Of a DNA stretch of 64,000 bases, positions 3,857 through 33,417 are shown one piece after another (the stretch's first letter is position 1; each line of letters begins with the position of its first letter). The translations under genes and the position numbers were made by a program. The DNA lies in sequence record NC_054927.1; one strand, written 5' to 3'. The stretch is from Escherichia phage vB_EcoM_Ozark. The notes under the pieces were generated by a model, which saw nothing but the letters and a program-made list of their open reading frames with translations, was not told the origin of the DNA and made no database searches.

Positions 3857-5059
3857 TTATTTTGTAATAATGTCAAACTGTTCTTTAAAGCAGAAGCTTG
3901 AATCTTGATGCTGATACAAAAATTCATAAGCTTTTTCGCGTTCGCGGTCATAAAGAGTTCGGTCAGATGACAGTTCTTTAATACGTTCAAATGTTGATTC
4001 CATGTCATTTTCATCAAACCAAATGATACCGCTATCATGCGAGGTCAAAGGAGTATTATCAACACGGAATTTTAAATTTTCGCCAGTAGATTTCCAAAAT
4101 ACCGGAATTGTTCCACATGCACCAAGCTCGAGATGAGTATATTCTAAAGAACGTTGTAGATATTTTTTATCCAACTTACTCAACTGATAACCAAAACCGG
4201 ATTTACTCATACGTTCAAGCATTTCGCTATTTACATAACGGTCAAGAATTTGCGTTGGCAAATTAGGAGCAATTTTAATTTGGTCTACTTGATGAAGACG
4301 ATAATACTCGTATGGAATTCCTTTTTCTTTAATAGGAATGAACGCTGGAGAACGTTCCAGACCTTCCATAATAGTACTTAGTCCTGCAGGTTTAAGATGT
4401 TTTTCATGAAAATCAAACATCTGATAAAAACCTTTCCATGTAGTCGTACGACCAATCCAACGGTTGATATTCATGTTAATTTCAGAAACATCTTTCCAGT
4501 AGGTTGACCGAACCTTCGCAATATCCATAGGAGGCTGAAAGTTATATACTGTCGGTGCTTCTTCAATATCATCAAACAGAGAAACTGTTTCAGGATACCA
4601 TTCTTTCATCAGAACTTTATTAAAATCACCATTATCAGAATGGCTAAAAATAACATCAGCTCGACGAACAGTTTCTTCTAATCCCAAATTTCGGCGCAAA
4701 GAAAGAGAAGAATGGTCATGTTGATAAACTACAACACGAACAGAAGGTTTAATGTTATCAATAATTTTTTTATAGTTATTAATAGTGTCTTCTTCAACTG
4801 AAGTAGCAGGAACTGAATTTATAATTAGAATATCACAATCATTTACCAGTTTAAGTGTTTTATCGTATTCTTTTGCCAATAAAACCGGAATTGAAAATGA
4901 TTTATAATCATGTGCACAGTTACGAGTAAATGATTTATCTTTAGCATAAACCAAAGTTACTTCATGACCATTTTTAATAAACCAATCACGTTGCTCAAGA
5001 GAAAATTTAGTTACACCGCAACCTTCAAGACCTCGAGCCATAAAAATACATACTTTCAT
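3857..5059 (-). CDS. a-gt: DNA alpha-glucosyltransferase (glucosylation of hydroxymethylcytosine DNA)
   Basis: 400-aa ORF starting MKVCIFMARGLEGCGVTKF; size and position (after gene 47) match T4 a-gt. Confidence 0.8.
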   Translation of the reverse strand: MKVCIFMARGLEGCGVTKFSLEQRDWFIKNGHEVTLVYAKDKSFTRNCAHDYKSFSIPVLLAKEYDKTLKLVNDCDILIINSVPATSVEEDTINNYKKIIDNIKPSVRVVVYQHDHSSLSLRRNLGLEETVRRADVIFSHSDNGDFNKVLMKEWYPETVSLFDDIEEAPTVYNFQPPMDIAKVRSTYWKDVSEINMNINRWIGRTTTWKGFYQMFDFHEKHLKPAGLSTIMEGLERSPAFIPIKEKGIPYEYYRLHQVDQIKIAPNLPTQILDRYVNSEMLERMSKSGFGYQLSKLDKKYLQRSLEYTHLELGACGTIPVFWKSTGENLKFRVDNTPLTSHDSGIIWFDENDMESTFERIKELSSDRTLYDREREKAYEFLYQHQDSSFCFKEQFDIITK

Positions 5060-27386: not shown

Positions 27387-27574
27387 TATTCTTCTACGTG
27401 CTGTTTACGACCTTTCTTATCAATAAAGGTATATTCAACGAATGTTCCAATATAGTCTTTATCTACATCATGCGGACTATTAATTGGACATTTAGTACGG
27501 CAAATGCGTTCCCATTGACGAATAATTTCCACTTTGTTTTTAGGATCAAACGGATGCGGGTAATGTACTTTCAT
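27362..27574 (-). CDS. Hypothetical protein
   Basis: 70-aa ORF. Confidence 0.35.
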   Translation of the reverse strand: MKVHYPHPFDPKNKVEIIRQWERICRTKCPINSPHDVDKDYIGTFVEYTFIDKKGRKQHVEEYCLKVTWL

Positions 27575-28025
27575 AATCCACCACTATTAAATCAATATCA
27601 GGAGTAAACATGTCGATTAATTTAGAAACCTTATCCCAATCGCCGCCAGCAATACCGCAACCTATGCGTGGAATGTAAATTACTGGTTTAAACAAAAGGG
27701 TTTCTGCCTGTAGATTTAATTCTATCATGCAGTTTACTAAAGCACCATAATCAAGATTAGGACCCGGTTCATATTGCGTATACAGGTTATAGCATATACC
27801 AAATCCTGTAGGATTATGTTTAAAAACAATAGACATATCGCCTAATTTATCACGAGAACCGTACTCGGTAGTGGTTTTATCTATTTCCAAAATTTTAGGA
27901 TAGGCTCTTGCTAATTGACCTGCTACGCCGGAGCCCATTGTATGGAAGCAATTGCACCCGTGTGCAATAATATTACCTTGAAGAAATAGGGCGACAATAT
28001 CGCCCTTGATATATTTTACAATCAT
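27546..28025 (-). CDS. Macro-domain protein (predicted ADP-ribose binding/hydrolysing)
   Basis: 159-aa ORF; N-terminal GNIIAHGCNCFHTMGSGVAGQLA and later IPRIGCGIAGG resemble macro-domain glycine-rich motifs. Confidence 0.55.
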   Translation of the reverse strand: MIVKYIKGDIVALFLQGNIIAHGCNCFHTMGSGVAGQLARAYPKILEIDKTTTEYGSRDKLGDMSIVFKHNPTGFGICYNLYTQYEPGPNLDYGALVNCMIELNLQAETLLFKPVIYIPRIGCGIAGGDWDKVSKLIDMFTPDIDLIVVDYESTLPASV

Positions 28026-28369
28026 CTAGTACTCAATCCTCGATTATAAGAATCTACTAAACGGTCAACCATTGAATGACAAGCGGCTTTATCTTTCTCC
28101 TCCGCAACTGAACATTCTAAGGTATTCCACTTTTTAGCATATCGTTTTAACAATGTATCATTTTTGTATCTGCTTGATTTATCTCTTTCTCCGTCTTTAT
28201 ATGCATATATTAATTTCTGCGCAAATTCAGCTTGGCATGCTTTATTTTTCCCACAATAATCCGCGGCAGTACGGTTTACATACTCTCTAATTTCAGTATA
28301 TGATGTATCTGCTGATGCAGAAGCAGAAAATGAAATTAATCCTATACATAAAACCAAAATTTTAGTCAT
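28022..28369 (-). CDS. Secreted small protein with cleavable signal peptide (vs position)
   Basis: 115-aa ORF; MTKILVLCIGLISFSASASA signal peptide; four Cys in the mature part. Confidence 0.4.
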   Translation of the reverse strand: MTKILVLCIGLISFSASASADTSYTEIREYVNRTAADYCGKNKACQAEFAQKLIYAYKDGERDKSSRYKNDTLLKRYAKKWNTLECSVAEEKDKAACHSMVDRLVDSYNRGLSTR

Positions 28370-28907
28370 TTACTATTTCCAAAAGTTTATTATTTTTAAG
28401 GTAATTAGCCTTTTCTAGGACTTCAGAAGCATATTTAGAACCAGCTTTAACATTCCATCCCGAATTATAAGAGGATATTGCTTTTCTTATATCGCCCTTA
28501 TGTATATTTAACCAATAAGAAAGTTCAATGTACGCCCATGAAGCTGAATTGGATCGTTTATTCAACATTCTTTTTATTTCAGCATCGGTCATATTATAAC
28601 CAAGTTCCTTAACTCTTGCTCGCATAGTAGGCAAATAATTTTGGAACATTCCATAGGCGTGATGCTTTGGTTTAGATTTTAAATTAACTCCGCCAGAGCT
28701 TTCTTGCCATAAAATGGCTGCCATTATATGACCTAATCCGCTCTTGTGGATATTTTTATGTGTTTTATATTTTCCATCCTTAGAAAATTGTTCCCCGAAT
28801 TGATACGCGTAACGCATGTTATCGAGTTGGACATTACTGAAAGTATGCTCGGAGCTATGTGCCATCATTGAAATGGCCAATAGACCAGCGAGTAGTGCTT
28901 TTCTCAT
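28362..28907 (-). CDS. Periplasmic lytic transglycosylase-like protein
   Basis: 181-aa ORF; signal peptide MRKALLAGLLAISMMAHS; SLT-domain motifs in order: ES (ILWQESSGG), GMFQ, SYNSGWN. Confidence 0.55.
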   Translation of the reverse strand: MRKALLAGLLAISMMAHSSEHTFSNVQLDNMRYAYQFGEQFSKDGKYKTHKNIHKSGLGHIMAAILWQESSGGVNLKSKPKHHAYGMFQNYLPTMRARVKELGYNMTDAEIKRMLNKRSNSASWAYIELSYWLNIHKGDIRKAISSYNSGWNVKAGSKYASEVLEKANYLKNNKLLEIVND

Positions 28908-28914
28908 GCTTACC

Positions 28915-29376
28915 TCATTGAGTTTTAATTACTGCTTTAGAAGCCTTTCCTGGTAAACGACGACTGTTAATAATTGCCATCCTACATTGAAGTGACGGGT
29001 CTTTGAACTTCTCATTAGGTTTACAAACTGTAAATCCAAGCCAAAGATTTCCATCTGTGATTTCTAAACGTCCAGGACGATATTCAACCCCATCAATAAA
29101 ATCCTCGTCAATGTCAGGACGCGGAGGCATACTCAGGAATTCATTAACTTCTAAAACATGGTCTTTTATTTTATGGAATAATTCAAAAACATATGTCTCA
29201 TCAATCTCCCGCTGAATTGCGCGATCAAGAAGATGCTGAGAATATTTTAGATGAAACGATGAGACCCCTGCTGCTTTTGATGCCTCACGAATCTCATTGT
29301 TAATTTGACGAAACTCCGACTCAAAGTGACGACGAAGCTTATTTCGACGGATAAAAACTTCTGTATTGATAGTCAT
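28915..29376 (-). CDS. regB: Endoribonuclease RegB
   Basis: 153-aa ORF MTINTEVFIRRNKLRRHFESEF...; size/sequence match T4 RegB; early promoter GTTTAC-N18-TATAAT immediately upstream. Confidence 0.85.
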   Translation of the reverse strand: MTINTEVFIRRNKLRRHFESEFRQINNEIREASKAAGVSSFHLKYSQHLLDRAIQREIDETYVFELFHKIKDHVLEVNEFLSMPPRPDIDEDFIDGVEYRPGRLEITDGNLWLGFTVCKPNEKFKDPSLQCRMAIINSRRLPGKASKAVIKTQ

Positions 29377-29402
29377 GTTGTTCTCCTCTTAACTGATAGA
29401 AA

Positions 29403-29435
29403 AATTATACCACAGTCAAGAGGAAAAGTAAACAG
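29403..29435 (-). promoter_or_regulatory. Early promoter upstream of regB
   Basis: Minus strand reads GTTTAC-N15-TGG-TATAAT, the T4 early-promoter architecture. Confidence 0.6.
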
Positions 29436-29714
29436 TTATTCTTTAAATCTGATCAATTTATTCATAGACTTTGAAACTTCTGCACGAACCTCATGTAGAT
29501 TTTTGAGCTGTTCAAGACGCTGCGTATAGTAAGCAATTTCATCTTCTTCGAGACAGTCCTGTGAATCTTCTTTAAGATAACGTGCATAGTCCTGAAAAGC
29601 GTTACGAACTACTTCCTGAAAATCATCAAGACTTTGAATTTTCTTAGGAGCAGCAAATACACGACGAGGGGCAGTATAATACTCATAACCAAACCCTGCG
29701 CTTAATTGAGCCAT
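29436..29714 (-). CDS. Hypothetical protein (vs.3 position)
   Basis: ORF track begins at a GTG; first ATG gives a 92-aa protein [13 protein letters not shown]...; TAATG overlap with the upstream gene. Confidence 0.4.
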
Positions 29715-29980
29715 TAGTATTTTTCCTCTGGTTGGAACACTGCACGACAAGCCCACATACTGGCTTCTTTGAGTTTCGTTTTAGCAATAGTTAACTGATC
29801 GAGGCTTTCGGTGTAATTCTTCGCGAGTTCATCATCTTCACAGCTATCAAATGCTTCCCAAAATTCATCGTATAAAGCATCAAAGATAAGTCCTAAACGA
29901 ACTTCAGCGTCTTTAATAGCATTTACTTTACCGATTTTTTCGTCGGTATGTGGCTTATAACCTTTAATATCTTCAATCAT
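29714..29980 (-). CDS. Hypothetical protein (vs.4 position; candidate Acb2-like cyclic-nucleotide sponge by position only)
   Basis: ORF track begins at TTG; first ATG (29980) has a strong AGGA ribosome-binding site and gives 88 aa [15 protein letters not shown]...; assignment is positional, not verified. Confidence 0.35.
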
Positions 29981-30194
29981 ATTTGACTTCCTCACCAGTA
30001 CATAAATCGTATTCAACTAAACGAATAGGTTCATGAATGCCATATCCATGAACAGAAATTTCTGTAGTAGGATAAATTCCATTAATATCACCCATGTTCC
30101 ATGCTTCGTTAAATTGCTGTTCGCCTGAATTACTAAACCACTCGGCGAAAGCATTTAGCACATCTTCAGAACCTTCAATAATTATCTTTGCCAT
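29973..30194 (-). CDS. Hypothetical small acidic protein
   Basis: 73-aa ORF. Confidence 0.35.
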   Translation of the reverse strand: MAKIIIEGSEDVLNAFAEWFSNSGEQQFNEAWNMGDINGIYPTTEISVHGYGIHEPIRLVEYDLCTGEEVKYD

Positions 30195-30556
30195 TACAAA
30201 CTCTCGGTAAAGGTACGAGCGATAACATCGCGCTGCTGTTCCGGAGTCAGAGAGTTAAAGCGAACTGCATAACCGGATACACGGATGGTCAGCTGCGGAT
30301 ATTTTTCCGGATGCTTAACTGCATCTTCCAGAGTTTCGCGACGCAGAACGTTTACGTTCAGGTGCTGACCACCTTCAATTTTAACTGTAGGCTGTTGCTC
30401 AATTTCAATTTCACGGGCATGCAAACCGTAGAAAATTTCTGGGTCTACAAAAGAGTCCTCTTTAAAGGTTTTAGAGACAATAATTCGTGCTTGAATACCA
30501 TCTTCAAAATAAATAGTGCCTTTGTGTGTGCCTTCAAGAATTTGATATGCTTTCAT
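30194..30556 (-). CDS. Autonomous glycyl-radical cofactor (GrcA/YfiD-like; T4 Y06I-like)
   Basis: 120-aa ORF ending in the glycyl-radical signature [26 protein letters not shown] typical of pyruvate formate-lyase C-termini. Confidence 0.8.
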
Positions 30557-30563
30557 ATAAACC

Positions 30564-30893
30564 TCAATTAGAAAATAAATTTATCCAAGATTGTTCTTTA
30601 ATTAAAAATGGCTCAGAATCATATGCCATTAAACTTTGGGTAATTAATCCTTTAAAAGGTCCATCAATAAATTCCATGGTAAAATATGGAATTTTATTCA
30701 TTAGCCGCGCATTAGGAGCAGTGCACAAAACTCTGCATCCTTTGAATACGCCTTTTTGTAATTTGTATTGCTTGGGATAAAATTCGCTCAAAATGTTGTT
30801 ATTTGCCAAAATTTCAAAATGATTCACCAATTTATTTTTAATAGTTTTTGGCGAAAAATAAAGATATTCGAAAAGCTGAGTGTCTGTCATCAT
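30564..30893 (-). CDS. Hypothetical protein
   Basis: ORF track gives 126 aa from 30944; the ATG at 30893 forms an ATGA overlap with the upstream stop and gives 109 aa ([10 protein letters not shown]...). Confidence 0.35.
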
Positions 30894-31429
30894 TGCATTC
30901 CGATTACGAAAAACTGTGGACGAGTAATACCACCAATGCAACATTTAATATTACAGCAGCAGTGTACAGTGTCAATATGGACACTATAAATCTTATCCAT
31001 ATCAGGAGATTTGACAGGCTCATCAATTATATATAAAATTCGCGAAAGCTTTAAACCTCTGAACTTGCTTCCTTTATTACCGATAAAACTGCGCACAGAA
31101 TCAGTAAATAAACGAAAACGTATATCATCATTAGAATAACGCGAAAATTCCTTTTTAATGTTATTTGCAGAAATTTTAGCGTAAGCTGAAGTATTAGAAA
31201 GAACAATAACTGTTCCGCCATCATACAACCAATTAGCAGCAAAGTTAGTCACAGCAATTGATTTACCGGATTGACGTCCACCGTCTAGTCGAAGTGTGCA
31301 ATACTGTTTAAGTAATTCTTCAAATGGCGGGATATATTCGTTTTTACAAATTTCTTCTACTCTAGCATCAGAATGGTGTGTAAAAGCATTCATCAGGGAT
31401 AGATAAGGACCAGTTAAAAATGTTCTCAT
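30890..31429 (-). CDS. Small P-loop NTPase-like protein
   Basis: 179-aa ORF; Walker A GGRQSGKS and Walker B-like LYIIDEP; C-terminal Cys cluster (HCCCNIKCC). Confidence 0.45.
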   Translation of the reverse strand: MRTFLTGPYLSLMNAFTHHSDARVEEICKNEYIPPFEELLKQYCTLRLDGGRQSGKSIAVTNFAANWLYDGGTVIVLSNTSAYAKISANNIKKEFSRYSNDDIRFRLFTDSVRSFIGNKGSKFRGLKLSRILYIIDEPVKSPDMDKIYSVHIDTVHCCCNIKCCIGGITRPQFFVIGMQ

Positions 31430-31569
31430 TTCTTCTCTCTAAATTTGGGCCATTCCGTGGCGCATGAATTGTCCATTTCTGTATTTACCCATTACCGCAC
31501 TTGGGCTCGACCTTATTACAGGTTGGCGGGAATCCCTCACAGAATCATGAGGTCCAGGTTGTTCCCATA

Positions 31570-32043
31570 TTATTTGAACGATTTAACGTACTGAATAGAA
31601 CCTTTACTATTCACGAAAGCGATTTTACCATTTTTATTATACATGGTAGCAGTACGCTGATAGCCATAAGTTTGCTTACCAGATTGATAACCAACTAATG
31701 CAAAATTATCTTCACCCATTTTATTCTGTTTAGCGCGAATGCGTTCATGACCATGTGCCATAAGAACCTTAGCATCACCAGTTGCAATGGATCGACGAGT
31801 TTTTTCATCTTCAACTGTATTAACAAAGTCGTCAAATGAATCAAATTTAGCATGAGATTTATTATACAGTTTTCCATCTACTGCATAATTATATCCCTGT
31901 ACATCCATCTCAACTTCTGTACCATCATCCAATACAGCAGTGATTTTCTGTCCTTTTTTAAATTTCAAAAGATCAGTAAAAGATTCAGCAATAATTTGAG
32001 AATTAATAGCTGCTTCAGTAATAAATTCTTGATATGTTTTCAT
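31570..32043 (-). CDS. Internal-protein-like packaged protein with capsid-targeting sequence
   Basis: 157-aa ORF beginning MKTYQEFITEA, i.e. the T4 internal-protein capsid-targeting sequence with a protease-type L/I-x-E cleavage motif. Confidence 0.6.
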   Translation of the reverse strand: MKTYQEFITEAAINSQIIAESFTDLLKFKKGQKITAVLDDGTEVEMDVQGYNYAVDGKLYNKSHAKFDSFDDFVNTVEDEKTRRSIATGDAKVLMAHGHERIRAKQNKMGEDNFALVGYQSGKQTYGYQRTATMYNKNGKIAFVNSKGSIQYVKSFK

Positions 32044-32059
32044 GTGTATCCTTTAATTT

Positions 32060-32377
32060 TTATTCTTTAGGGAAGTTTTTAGAATATGCATCATAAAGCT
32101 TATTTCCAATACGGCGGAAAACTCTAGCCGCAAAACGATTTTCTGGGTTTTTAATCATGATTTGCATCATATAAGTACCCGCGTCAGAAAGAGCTTCTTC
32201 ATAGTACCCGTTAATTTCTTTAAGAGTCCTACGTTTACCACCAGGACCATCAACAGTGATTTTCCATTTACCTGTAGAAGTGCGACTTGGCGGCTCAACT
32301 TGTTCAATCCAGATATAACCGCCTTCTACACGTTGTCCTTGGGCAGATTCTGCAATAAATTCTTTAAACGTTTTCAT
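32060..32377 (-). CDS. Internal-protein-like packaged protein with capsid-targeting sequence
   Basis: 105-aa ORF beginning MKTFKEFIAES; early-promoter element immediately upstream. Confidence 0.6.
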   Translation of the reverse strand: MKTFKEFIAESAQGQRVEGGYIWIEQVEPPSRTSTGKWKITVDGPGGKRRTLKEINGYYEEALSDAGTYMMQIMIKNPENRFAARVFRRIGNKLYDAYSKNFPKE

Positions 32378-32411
32378 ATGGTTCCTTTAAATATTTTAAT
32401 TAGTAACTATG

Positions 32412-32446
32412 AATATACTATCACAGTTCTAGGAGAAAGTAAACAA
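32412..32446 (-). promoter_or_regulatory. Early promoter upstream of an internal-protein gene
   Basis: Minus strand GTTTAC-N15-TGA-TAGTAT. Confidence 0.45.
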
Positions 32447-32448
32447 CT

Positions 32449-33417
<969 letters not shown>

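What the first reader, a model, noticed from the sequence alone, without database searches (positions are those of the whole stretch)
29436..30194. Three translationally coupled small genes after regB, one at the vs.4 (Acb2-type) position
Genes of 92, 88 and 73 aa overlap by TAATG or a few nucleotides and have strong ribosome-binding sites. By position the second corresponds to T4 vs.4, which I recall as encoding the Acb2 cyclic-oligonucleotide sponge. That assignment is positional only; I cannot verify sequence identity.
Basis: inference. Interest (0 to 1): 0.45.

Follow-up and report, generated by a model that had tools for sequence, protein, structure and literature searches.

The report
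T4-type Acb2 and TadIV-1 sponge genes
The three small overlapping genes are the vs.5-vs.4-vs.3 cluster of a T4-like phage; two of them encode already-characterised proteins that soak up bacterial immune signals (Acb2 against CBASS, TadIV-1 against type IV Thoeris), so the finding is correct but known.

Summary
Three minus-strand genes of 92, 88 and 73 aa lie at 29436-30194, with a TAATG overlap (vs.4/vs.3) and an 8-nt overlap (vs.5/vs.4). They lie upstream of regB in the direction of transcription.

The middle gene is Acb2/Vs.4. It is 82/88 identical to the crystallised T4 Vs.4 (PDB 7UQ2) and scores 70.9 bits on Pfam Acb2_Tad1_hairpin (cut-off 27). It keeps every published ligand-contact, hexamer-interface and loss-of-function residue.

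T4 Vs.3 is TadIV-1, a dimeric sponge for the type IV Thoeris signal N7-cADPR (Nat Commun 2026). The window protein is 90/92 identical to T4 Vs.3, is the active long form and keeps R17, R18 and K24. One loop change (S20F) may affect binding.

The 73-aa Vs.5 has no known function. Its model is confident (pLDDT 91) but has no structural or sequence relative outside T4-like phages.

All three proteins are identical to those of phage vB_EcoM_Ozark. Gene overlaps like these are routine in T4 early regions. The finding is already known and of low interest; the only open question is what Vs.5 does.

The parts
29714..29980 (-). acb2 (vs.4): 88-aa cyclic-dinucleotide sponge, anti-CBASS 2
   Evidence: It is 82/88 identical to PDB 7UQ2 Vs.4, E 1.5e-52. 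It scores 70.9 bits on Pfam PF24729 against a cut-off of 27 and matches phrog_717. Residues Y8, H11, T12, K23, L29, F33, L60, D61, A66, T68, A73, S74, A77, R79 and F82 are all kept. It is identical to YP_010072685 of phage vB_EcoM_Ozark, which UniRef names 'Acb2/Tad1 hairpin domain-containing protein'.
29436..29714 (-). tadIV-1 (vs.3): 92-aa N7-cADPR sponge, anti-type IV Thoeris, long (active) form
   Evidence: It is 90/92 identical to T4 Vs.3, with changes S20F and V21A. It matches PDB 9WIW (the UPEC07 TadIV-1 homologue) at E 2.9e-37 and phrog_2037. The AF2 model shows a disordered N-terminus (residues 1-27) and two antiparallel helices (29-53, 57-91), as reported for TadIV-1 (PMC13243611). 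R17, R18 and K24 are present (sequence).
29973..30194 (-). vs.5: 73-aa acidic alpha/beta protein of unknown function, restricted to T4-like phages
29989..29993 (-). Shine-Dalgarno GAGGA of acb2, inside the 3' end of vs.5
   Evidence: Read from the upstream sequence TTATGTACTGGTGAGGAAGTCAAATATG.
29724..29729 (-). Shine-Dalgarno AGAGGA of tadIV-1, inside the 3' end of acb2
   Evidence: Read from the upstream sequence ...CCAGAGGAAAAATACTAATG.
30201..30205 (-). weak Shine-Dalgarno GAGAG of vs.5, inside the 3' end of vs.6
   Evidence: Read from the upstream sequence ...ACCGAGAGTTTGTAATG.
30194..30556 (-). vs.6: GrcA-like autonomous glycyl-radical cofactor, joined to vs.5 by TAATG (context)
   Evidence: It matches Pfam Gly_radical at E 2.5e-18. 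It scores 154.9 bits on NCBIfam TIGR04365 spare_glycyl, below that model's cut-off of 170. It is 118/120 identical to T4 Vs.6.
29404..29432 (-). sigma-70-type promoter match for regB in the vs.3-regB gap (context; marks the 3' limit of the chain of overlapping genes)
   Evidence: The match is TTTACT-17-TATAAT with an upstream TG, 10 of 12 positions. The sequence is identical in T4.
28915..29376 (-). regB endoribonuclease (context)
   Evidence: It is 153/153 identical to T4 RegB.

Best explanation
The segment is the vs.5-vs.4-vs.3 part of the vs.8-to-vs.3 gene run of a Tequatrovirus (T4-like phage) whose proteins are identical to those of vB_EcoM_Ozark. It works as a small anti-defence cluster made of independent proteins that are co-expressed.

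(1) acb2 (vs.4). The 88-aa protein is expected to form a hexamer that binds three cyclic dinucleotides (3',3'-cGAMP and its isomers, c-di-AMP). Each ligand sits between the N-terminal parts of two protomers, stacked on Y8 and F82 and held by H11, K23 and R79. This keeps the CBASS signal away from its effector. Like T4 Acb2, which has D61 and T68, it is predicted not to bind cyclic trinucleotides. It should also make the phage detectable by Panoptes decoy-nucleotide systems.

(2) tadIV-1 (vs.3). The 92-aa protein is expected to form a two-helix dimer. Its flexible N-terminal loop (R17, R18, K24) sequesters N7-cADPR, so the Caspase-like effector of type IV Thoeris is not activated.

(3) vs.5. 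This is a conserved acidic alpha/beta protein whose target is unknown.

The overlapping stop and start codons, with ribosome-binding sites inside the preceding gene, probably allow ribosomes to pass from vs.6 through vs.5 and acb2 to tadIV-1.

What is shown here: gene structure, sequence identity, residue conservation and synteny. What is taken from the literature on T4 orthologues: ligand binding, oligomeric state and defence inhibition. What is inferred: translational coupling and the transfer of those functions to this phage.
For: Acb2:
- PDB 7UQ2, E 1.5e-52.
- Pfam PF24729, 70.9 bits against a cut-off of 27.
- PHROG 717.
- only six substitutions (E13D, L44F, N46S, C50D, F52L, A57T). None is at a published functional residue, and all 15 such residues are kept.
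- five of the six substitutions fall in the stretch between about residues 37 and 69, which is variable across genera, whereas residues 2-32 and 70-88 are almost invariant.
- Function of the T4 protein: Kd about 30 nM for cGAMP; hexamer with three ligands; contacts Y8, H11, K23, R79 and F82; interface residues L29, F33, A66, A73 and A77 (PMC10097602). It binds cyclic dinucleotides but not cA3 (PMC10312549). It activates Panoptes, and Y8A or F82C abolish this (PMC12657218).

TadIV-1:
- PDB 9WIW, E 2.9e-37.
- 90/92 identical to T4 Vs.3.
- the AF2 model has a disordered N-terminus plus a helical hairpin.
- Function of T4 Vs.3 (PMC13243611): deleting it makes T4 sensitive to type IV Thoeris; KD is about 216 nM for N7-cADPR; it is a dimer; R17, R18 and K24 matter; only long-form homologues are active.

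Architecture:
- coordinates, overlaps and ribosome-binding sites.
- the same overlaps in phage TadeuszReichstein and in resequenced T4.
- the vs.5/acb2 overlap is kept in Kanagawavirus (11 nt), Mosigvirus (11 nt) and Dhakavirus (4 nt).
- all three proteins are identical to YP_010072684-6 of phage vB_EcoM_Ozark.
Against: Nothing was measured for this phage's own proteins.

The window TadIV-1 carries S20F and V21A in the ligand-binding loop. By the paper's numbering (T4 R17/R18 correspond to U07 R18/R19), T4 S20 corresponds to U07 S21, a residue predicted to contact N7-cADPR. Affinity could therefore differ. This point is inference.

The N7-cADPR pocket itself is known only from predicted models and mutagenesis, not from a solved complex (PMC13243611).

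Translational coupling is inferred from geometry only.

The promoter that drives the run was not located. No sigma-70, MotA-box or late-promoter consensus lies just upstream of vs.8. Published transcriptome work places T4 acb2 expression mostly in middle/late infection.

Vs.5 remains unassigned.
Confidence: 0.9

Rival explanations
1. Vs.5 is a third, still undescribed anti-defence protein, so the whole trio is an anti-defence island. It would either sequester another signal or, given its conserved acidic surface, bind and block a host defence protein.
For: - Both downstream neighbours are proven sponges.
- Vs.5 is small (73 aa) and acidic (pI 4.2), and it is confidently folded.
- It has no cellular or structural relatives.
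- Its overlap with acb2 is kept across four genera of T4-like phages.
- Homologues carry variable C-terminal extensions, which fits a rapidly evolving accessory gene.
Against: - Expressed alone from the vs.8 promoter, only Vs.3 among Vs.3-Vs.8 impaired type IV Thoeris (PMC13243611).
- Knocking out acb2 alone reduced T4 titre about 50-fold on Cap2-mutant CBASS cells (PMC10097602).
- No paper linking Vs.5 to any defence system was found.
- Adjacency in T4 early regions is weak evidence, because these regions are dense with unrelated small genes.
- Vs.5 is joined just as tightly to the metabolic gene vs.6 (grcA-like).
Confidence: 0.3
2. The three proteins act together as one machine. For example, Vs.5 and Vs.3 could be partners or regulators of the Acb2 hexamer, with the gene overlaps serving to set their stoichiometry.
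For: The overlaps are tight, and the order vs.5-acb2-(vs.3-like) is conserved in Tequatrovirus, Mosigvirus and Kanagawavirus.
Against: - T4 Acb2 alone binds cGAMP as a hexamer, and Acb2 alone triggers Panoptes (PMC10097602, PMC12657218).
- Vs.3 alone blocks type IV Thoeris (PMC13243611).
- The three genes have different distributions: 1241, 987 and 691 phage records.
- Dhakavirus KIT01 has vs.5 and acb2 but no vs.3.
- In Jiaodavirus, grcA sits between vs.5 and acb2 and there is no vs.3.
- STML-198 keeps an intact vs.5 next to a broken acb2.
- Acb2 relatives occur in non-Straboviridae phages (Phapecoctavirus at 77% identity, HK639 at 30%).
Confidence: 0.04
3. Vs.3 and Vs.4 are diverged tandem duplicates of one helical-hairpin sponge ancestor.
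For: Both proteins are about 90 aa, with an N-terminal ligand-binding segment followed by a two-helix hairpin (PMC10097602; PMC13243611). BLASTP finds a local match of 10/19 identities (Vs.3 53-70 against Vs.4 45-63) at pairwise E 0.003.
Against: - Profile-profile comparison of the two families gives a probability of 0.07%.
- The matching stretch lies in the part of Acb2 that varies between genera.
- No Vs.3 family member hits Pfam PF24729 even at E up to 1.
- The published comparison finds TadIV-1 structurally distinct from Acb2 (PMC13243611).
- Foldseek of the Vs.3 model against the PDB gave no hit.
Confidence: 0.04

Closest known systems
Phage T4 Vs.4 / Acb2 (anti-CBASS 2; PDB 7UQ2; Pfam PF24729; PHROG 717)
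   Same: Both proteins are 88 aa and share 93% identity. The gene has the same position between vs.5 and vs.3, and the same TAATG junction to vs.3. All published ligand-contact, hexamer-interface and loss-of-function residues are identical. [quoted passage not shown]
   Different: There are six substitutions: E13D, L44F, N46S, C50D, F52L and A57T. Five lie in the stretch that varies between genera. None is at a residue with a published role, so no functional difference is expected.
[quoted passage not shown]
   Same: Both are the 92-aa long form and share 98% identity. R17, R18 and K24 are kept. The predicted N-terminus is disordered and is followed by two antiparallel helices. The gene has the same position immediately upstream of the regB promoter.
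   Different: S20F and V21A lie inside the flexible loop that forms the N7-cADPR pocket. S20 corresponds to a predicted contact residue (S21) of the UPEC07 protein. Binding strength for this variant has not been tested.
PaMx33 / JBD67 Acb2 (Pseudomonas phages)
   Same: They belong to the same family and fold, and they share the Tyr/Lys cyclic-dinucleotide pocket (Y11 and K26 there, Y8 and K23 here).
   Different: Identity is only about 24% (figure given for T4 in PMC10312549). The Pseudomonas proteins also bind cyclic trinucleotides through R67 and T74. The T4-type protein has D61 at the R67 position and does not bind cA3.
Vs.5 family (PHROG 1986) of Tevenvirinae
   Same: It is a full-length member, 71/73 identical to Vs.5 of resequenced T4, with the same 8-nt overlap with acb2.
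   Different: The T4 reference annotation (NC_000866) gives a 58-aa Vs.5 because that sequence lacks one C. No family member has a described function.

Membership tests
Acb2 (Vs.4) cyclic-oligonucleotide sponge | Significant sequence membership in the curated family (Pfam PF24729 Acb2_Tad1_hairpin; PHROG 717) | tested here: met
   Pfam gives 70.9 bits against a gathering score of 27, E 1e-19. phrog_717 matches at E 1.8e-31.
Acb2 (Vs.4) cyclic-oligonucleotide sponge | Homology to a member with a solved ligand complex | tested here: met
   It matches 7UQ2 chain A 'Vs.4' at E 1.5e-52 with full-length alignment and 82/88 identity.
Acb2 (Vs.4) cyclic-oligonucleotide sponge | Cyclic-dinucleotide pocket residues (T4 numbering Y8, H11, K23, R79, F82) | tested here: met
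   All five are identical. Their roles are taken from PMC10097602 and PMC12657218.
Acb2 (Vs.4) cyclic-oligonucleotide sponge | Hexamer-interface residues (L29, F33, A66, A73, A77) | tested here: met
   All are identical. Their roles are taken from PMC10097602.
Acb2 (Vs.4) cyclic-oligonucleotide sponge | Forms a hexamer and binds 3',3'-cGAMP with nanomolar affinity; protects the phage from CBASS | not testable with these tools
   This needs ITC or AUC and plaque assays. It has been shown only for the T4 orthologue.
TadIV-1 (Vs.3) N7-cADPR sponge | Sequence homology to T4 Vs.3 and the crystallised UPEC07 homologue | tested here: met
   It is 90/92 identical to T4 Vs.3. It matches 9WIW at E 2.9e-37 and phrog_2037 at E 1.7e-40.
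TadIV-1 (Vs.3) N7-cADPR sponge | Long form (more than 80 aa) with the N-terminal flexible loop; short forms of about 70 aa are inactive | tested here: met
   The protein is 92 aa. Residues 1-27 are predicted to be disordered. phrog_2037 covers only residues 22-92, so the N-terminal extension is present. The criterion comes from PMC13243611.
TadIV-1 (Vs.3) N7-cADPR sponge | Basic residues R17, R18, K24 (T4 numbering) needed for N7-cADPR binding | tested here: met
   The sequence [25 protein letters not shown] has R17, R18 and K24. However, positions 20-21 differ from T4 (S20F, V21A).
TadIV-1 (Vs.3) N7-cADPR sponge | Two antiparallel helices per protomer | tested here: met
   The AF2 model has helices 29-53 and 57-91, but at moderate confidence (pLDDT 63.8).
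TadIV-1 (Vs.3) N7-cADPR sponge | Forms a dimer, binds N7-cADPR and blocks type IV Thoeris | not testable with these tools
   This needs SEC-MALS or SPR and plaque assays. It has been shown for the T4 and UPEC07 proteins only.
Nucleotide-signal sponge (generic) - considered for Vs.5 | Small protein that forms a homo-oligomer with ligand pockets at protomer interfaces; relatedness to Tad1, Tad2, Acb2, Acb4, Sequestin, Lockin or TadIV-1 | tested here: not met
   Small size is met (73 aa). No sequence or fold relation to any solved sponge was found. The oligomeric state and any pockets could not be modelled with the tools available.

The most novel reading that the evidence does not exclude
Vs.5 (29973-30194) would be a third, undescribed anti-defence protein. 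It is the only uncharacterised gene in an overlapping chain with two immune-signal sponges, and its overlap with acb2 is conserved across genera of T4-like phages. If this is right, vs.5-acb2-tadIV-1 is a compact, co-translated counter-defence island, and Vs.5 founds a new inhibitor family with a fold that has no known relative.
Probability: 0.25. Interest if true: 0.55.

Novelty: already known. Interest (0 to 1): 0.12.

Why it matters
The segment confirms that this T4-like phage carries two characterised immune-signal sponges side by side. Acb2 acts against cGAMP-type CBASS, and TadIV-1 acts against type IV Thoeris. That is useful for annotation, because most database records still call all three genes 'hypothetical' or give them wrong names: 'RegB-like RNA endonuclease' for Acb2, 'pyrimidine dimer DNA glycosylase' for Vs.5, and 'Endoribonuclease' for the TadIV-1 homologue in PDB 9WIW. 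It also helps predict host range, since the phage should resist those two systems but be sensed by Panoptes-type decoy systems. It adds no new biology. The one lead is Vs.5, an orphan protein with a confident model, which sits between a glycyl-radical cofactor gene and two sponges and is a reasonable candidate for anti-defence screening.

Tried and rejected
(1) Paralogy of Vs.3 and Vs.4. BLASTP gave a local 10/19 match, but hhalign gave a probability of 0.07%, no Vs.3 member hit PF24729, and Foldseek gave no hit. Rejected.

(2) Avoidance of the RegB cleavage motif GGAG on the coding strand upstream of regB. There is a 3239-nt GGAG-free gap (29383-32622), but gaps of 3364 and 4789 nt occur elsewhere in the window. 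Not exceptional.

(3) A terminator-like hairpin inside vs.5 (30053-30029). Two stem positions are mismatched in T4, so it is a chance match.

(4) Local middle (MotA-box) or late (TATAAATA) promoters for the cluster. No candidates were found on the minus strand between 28.7 and 32.9 kb. Nor is there a sigma-70 match directly upstream of vs.8. The promoter remains unlocated.

(5) An Rfam scan of 28800-32200 gave only one sub-threshold chance hit.

(6) The GC-rich conserved stretch upstream of vs.8 was tested as a structured RNA. The folding z-score is +0.38, so this was rejected.

(7) Function of Vs.5 was sought in several ways, all without result:
- Pfam, NCBIfam and PHROGs.
- PDB sequence profile.
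- BFVD: only its own family.
- Exhaustive profile search: 18 clusters. The long hits (P0139, P0145) match through a WxENxGxQxFTE repeat resembling the WFSNSGEQxF motif of Vs.5. I judged these, and P0143 and P0146, to be spurious.

(8) Long 'Vs.5' homologues of 156-164 aa were checked as possible Vs.5-Acb2 fusions. They are not. They carry other C-terminal extensions, or in phage PG7 an N-terminal Vs.7-like part.

(9) The afdb50 fold library was unavailable.

(10) Literature searches for Vs.5 found nothing relevant.

Full report
OBSERVATION

The window is from a T4-like phage, and all genes in this region run on the minus strand. ORF listing and direct translation give three genes:
- 29436-29714, 92 aa
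- 29714-29980, 88 aa
- 29973-30194, 73 aa

All three start with ATG. The sequence shows that the stop of the 88-aa gene and the start of the 92-aa gene form TAATG, sharing base 29714. The 73-aa and 88-aa genes share 8 nt (ATGATTGA). A further TAATG joins the upstream 120-aa gene (30194-30556) to the 73-aa gene. The chain of overlapping genes therefore has at least four members.

The ribosome-binding sites are AGAGGA (92-aa gene) and GAGGA (88-aa gene). The 73-aa gene has only GAGAG. regB (28915-29376) is 153/153 identical to T4 RegB. It lies downstream in the direction of transcription, behind a sigma-70-type promoter match at 29432-29404.

One ribosome-binding site is weak. 'After regB' holds only in + coordinates. 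Overlaps of this kind are the norm here: 10 of 23 adjacent gene pairs overlap in the T4 reference stretch.

IDENTITY OF THE REGION

The 1.7-kb segment is 98-99% identical to many Tequatrovirus genomes. The T4 reference gene order is regB, vs.3 (92 aa), vs.4 (88 aa), vs.5, vs.6. All three window proteins are identical to YP_010072684-6 of Escherichia phage vB_EcoM_Ozark.

THE MIDDLE GENE IS ACB2

Sequence evidence:
- The 88-aa protein matches the crystallised T4 Vs.4 (PDB 7UQ2) over its full length at E 1.5e-52.
- It scores 70.9 bits on Pfam PF24729 Acb2_Tad1_hairpin, against a cut-off of 27.
- It matches PHROG 717, the family Jenson et al. used to define Vs.4 homologues (PMC10097602).

Published facts about the T4 protein:
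- Vs.4 binds 3',3'-cGAMP with a Kd of about 30 nM.
- It forms a hexamer that holds three ligands.
- It contacts the ligand through Y8, H11, K23, R79 and F82.
- It needs L29, F33, A66, A73 and A77 for hexamer formation.
- Vs.4 was renamed Acb2 (PMC10449767).
- T4 Acb2 binds cyclic dinucleotides but not cA3; it has D61 and T68 where the Pseudomonas protein has R67 and T74 (PMC10312549).
- T4 Acb2 is necessary and sufficient to trigger the Panoptes system, and Y8A or F82C abolish this (PMC12657218).

A residue-by-residue check shows that all of these positions are unchanged in the window protein. The four mutant positions from the genetic screen (T12, L60, S74, A77) are also unchanged.

The six substitutions relative to T4 are E13D, L44F, N46S, C50D, F52L and A57T. 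Five of them fall in a stretch that varies freely between genera. Residues 2-32 and 70-88, by contrast, are almost invariant from Tequatrovirus to Jiaodavirus. Ligand binding by this particular protein is inferred.

THE 92-AA GENE IS TADIV-1

Family libraries gave only an unnamed PHROG (phrog_2037) that covers residues 22-92. My AlphaFold2 model showed a disordered N-terminus and a two-helix hairpin at moderate confidence. Foldseek against the PDB found nothing.

A profile search of PDB sequences, however, hit 9WIW at E 4.8e-60, and the single sequence hit it at E 2.9e-37. That entry belongs to Chen et al., Nat Commun 2026 (PMC13243611). Their findings:
- T4 Vs.3, named TadIV-1, is the sole T4 inhibitor of type IV Thoeris.
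- It sequesters the signal N7-cADPR (KD about 216 nM) rather than degrading it.
- It is a dimer of two-helix protomers.
- Its flexible N-terminal loop forms the pocket.
- T4 residues R17, R18 and K24 matter for binding.
- Only long-form homologues (about 90 aa) are active; short forms (about 70 aa) are not.

The window protein is the long form, is 90/92 identical to T4 Vs.3 and keeps R17, R18 and K24.

There is one caveat. Its two differences, S20F and V21A, lie in the binding loop. Using the paper's residue correspondence, S20 aligns with S21 of the UPEC07 protein, a predicted contact residue. The effect of this change is unknown.

The shorter proteins at the same position in Mosigvirus PhAPEC2 (71 aa) and Kanagawavirus CIP9 (69 aa) resemble residues 22-92 of Vs.3. 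They correspond to the inactive short group.

THE 73-AA GENE (VS.5)

Vs.5 is a real, conserved gene. tblastn finds it in 987 phage records, 985 of them near full length and down to 42% identity. It matches phrog_1986.

With a 54-sequence alignment, AlphaFold2 gives a confident small alpha/beta model (pLDDT 91.4). Nothing informative matches it:
- BFVD returns only uncharacterised members of its own family.
- The PDB sequence profile search returns nothing.
- An exhaustive profile search of 1.84 billion representatives returns 18 clusters. These are mostly short phage proteins sharing the motif WFSNSGEQxF, plus spurious repeat proteins.

The protein is acidic (pI 4.2). Several of its invariant or nearly invariant residues are acidic. 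Homologues carry variable C-terminal extensions but are not fused to Acb2.

In Chen et al., Vs.3 to Vs.8 were each expressed alone, and only Vs.3 affected type IV Thoeris. No paper linking Vs.5 to a function was found. Its function remains open. I consider an anti-defence role the most interesting reading that remains open, at about 25-30%.

ARE THE THREE ONE SYSTEM?

The evidence says no.
- Acb2 alone and Vs.3 alone are each sufficient for their activities, according to the literature above.
- Their distributions differ: 1241, 987 and 691 phage records.
- Dhakavirus KIT01 has vs.5 and acb2 but no vs.3.
- Jiaodavirus has grcA between vs.5 and acb2 and no vs.3.
- Gelderlandvirus STML-198 has an intact vs.5 next to an acb2 split into two fragments.
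- Acb2 relatives occur outside the Straboviridae.

The vs.5/acb2 overlap is nevertheless kept in four genera: 8, 11, 11 and 4 nt. This fits co-expression of independent accessory genes.

EXPRESSION

The overlaps, and the ribosome-binding sites that lie inside preceding genes, make translational coupling plausible. This is inference. I could not locate the promoter. No sigma-70, MotA-box or late consensus lies immediately upstream of vs.8. Chen et al. used a 'vs.8 promoter' fragment from T4. A transcriptome atlas reports mainly middle/late expression of T4 acb2.

SIDE RESULT

The T4 reference annotation gives a 58-aa Vs.5, separated from vs.4 by 36 nt. The DNA alignment shows that the reference lacks one C within vs.5. 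Only the three records derived from the original sequence (X04567, AF158101, NC_000866) share this. Every independently sequenced T4 has the extra base. MT984581 and T4T annotate a 73-aa Vs.5 that overlaps vs.4 by 8 nt, exactly as in the window. The 58-aa reference product is therefore most likely a sequencing error or a stock-specific frameshift.

VERDICT

The finding is already known. Acb2 was described in 2023 and TadIV-1 in 2026, and this window's proteins are 93% and 98% identical to the T4 orthologues that were studied, and identical to those of the sequenced phage vB_EcoM_Ozark. Interest is low (0.12). The remaining lead is the orphan Vs.5.

Noticed in passing
window 30135-30145 (vs.5); L001 (NC_000866) 4382-4558: The T4 reference sequence lacks one C in vs.5 (TTCG-CGAG against TTCGCCGAG here). 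This gives its annotated 58-aa Vs.5 an out-of-frame C-terminus and a 36-nt gap before vs.4. Only X04567, AF158101 and NC_000866 share the deletion. All resequenced T4 genomes have the 73-aa gene that overlaps vs.4 by 8 nt. The reference is probably in error.
   Followed up: yes
window 30194-30556 (-): vs.6 encodes a GrcA/YfiD-like autonomous glycyl-radical cofactor (Pfam Gly_radical; motif RVSGYAVRF). It is joined to vs.5 by TAATG. A metabolic 'spare part' gene thus sits in the same overlapping chain as two immune-signal sponges.
   Followed up: partly
window 31430-31570 (-), upstream of vs.8 (30890-31429): This is a GC-rich stretch of about 130 nt, conserved in 695 phage records. In the T4 reference it is annotated as the 5' part of a longer vs.8 (219 aa). 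Here a 9-nt deletion and a TAG stop separate it from the 179-aa vs.8. It has no Rfam match and does not fold better than shuffled sequence (z = +0.38).
   Followed up: partly
window 31430-32450: denV (endonuclease V), which lies between vs.8 and ipII in T4, is absent from this position. tblastn does not find it anywhere in the 64-kb window. Two internal-head-protein-like genes with the MKT(Y/F)(Q/K)EFI leader lie there instead (31570-32043 and 32060-32377), followed by the lysozyme gene e (32449-32943).
   Followed up: partly
L004 (Salmonella phage STML-198) 2224-2504: acb2 is split into a 26-aa N-terminal fragment and a 41-aa C-terminal fragment, while the adjacent vs.5 is intact. This could be a natural acb2 pseudogene. 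Loss of the sponge would be expected under pressure from decoy-nucleotide systems such as Panoptes. It could also be a sequencing error.
   Followed up: no
L007 (Klebsiella phage ValerieMcCarty04) 2001-2997; PDB 9WIW: Misleading names are in circulation. In this record the Acb2 homologue is annotated 'RegB-like RNA endonuclease' and the Vs.5 homologue 'pyrimidine dimer DNA glycosylase'. The PDB molecule name of the TadIV-1 homologue 9WIW is 'Endoribonuclease'. None of these names is supported by sequence.
   Followed up: partly
hits H108, H110, H122: Acb2 relatives occur outside T4-like phages: in Phapecoctavirus 536P1 at 77% identity, in Mt1B1_P17 at 67%, and in the lambdoid phage HK639 at 30%. 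This suggests horizontal transfer of acb2 without vs.5 or vs.3.
   Followed up: no
cluster 2: The 90%-identity protein cluster that holds the 88-aa Acb2 also holds the 73-aa Vs.5 proteins. These are unrelated in sequence, so the grouping is probably an artefact of a read-through or fused ORF call across the 8-nt overlap.
   Followed up: no
window 27546-28025 (-), 28022-28369 (-), 28362-28907 (-): Downstream of regB lie vs.1 (181 aa; its homologues in other phage records are annotated as SLT-domain lytic transglycosylases), vs (115 aa, the valyl-tRNA synthetase modifier) and a 159-aa tk.4-like gene (the T4 reference annotates tk.4 as a phosphatase with an A1pp motif). They overlap each other by 8 and 4 nt.
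   Followed up: no
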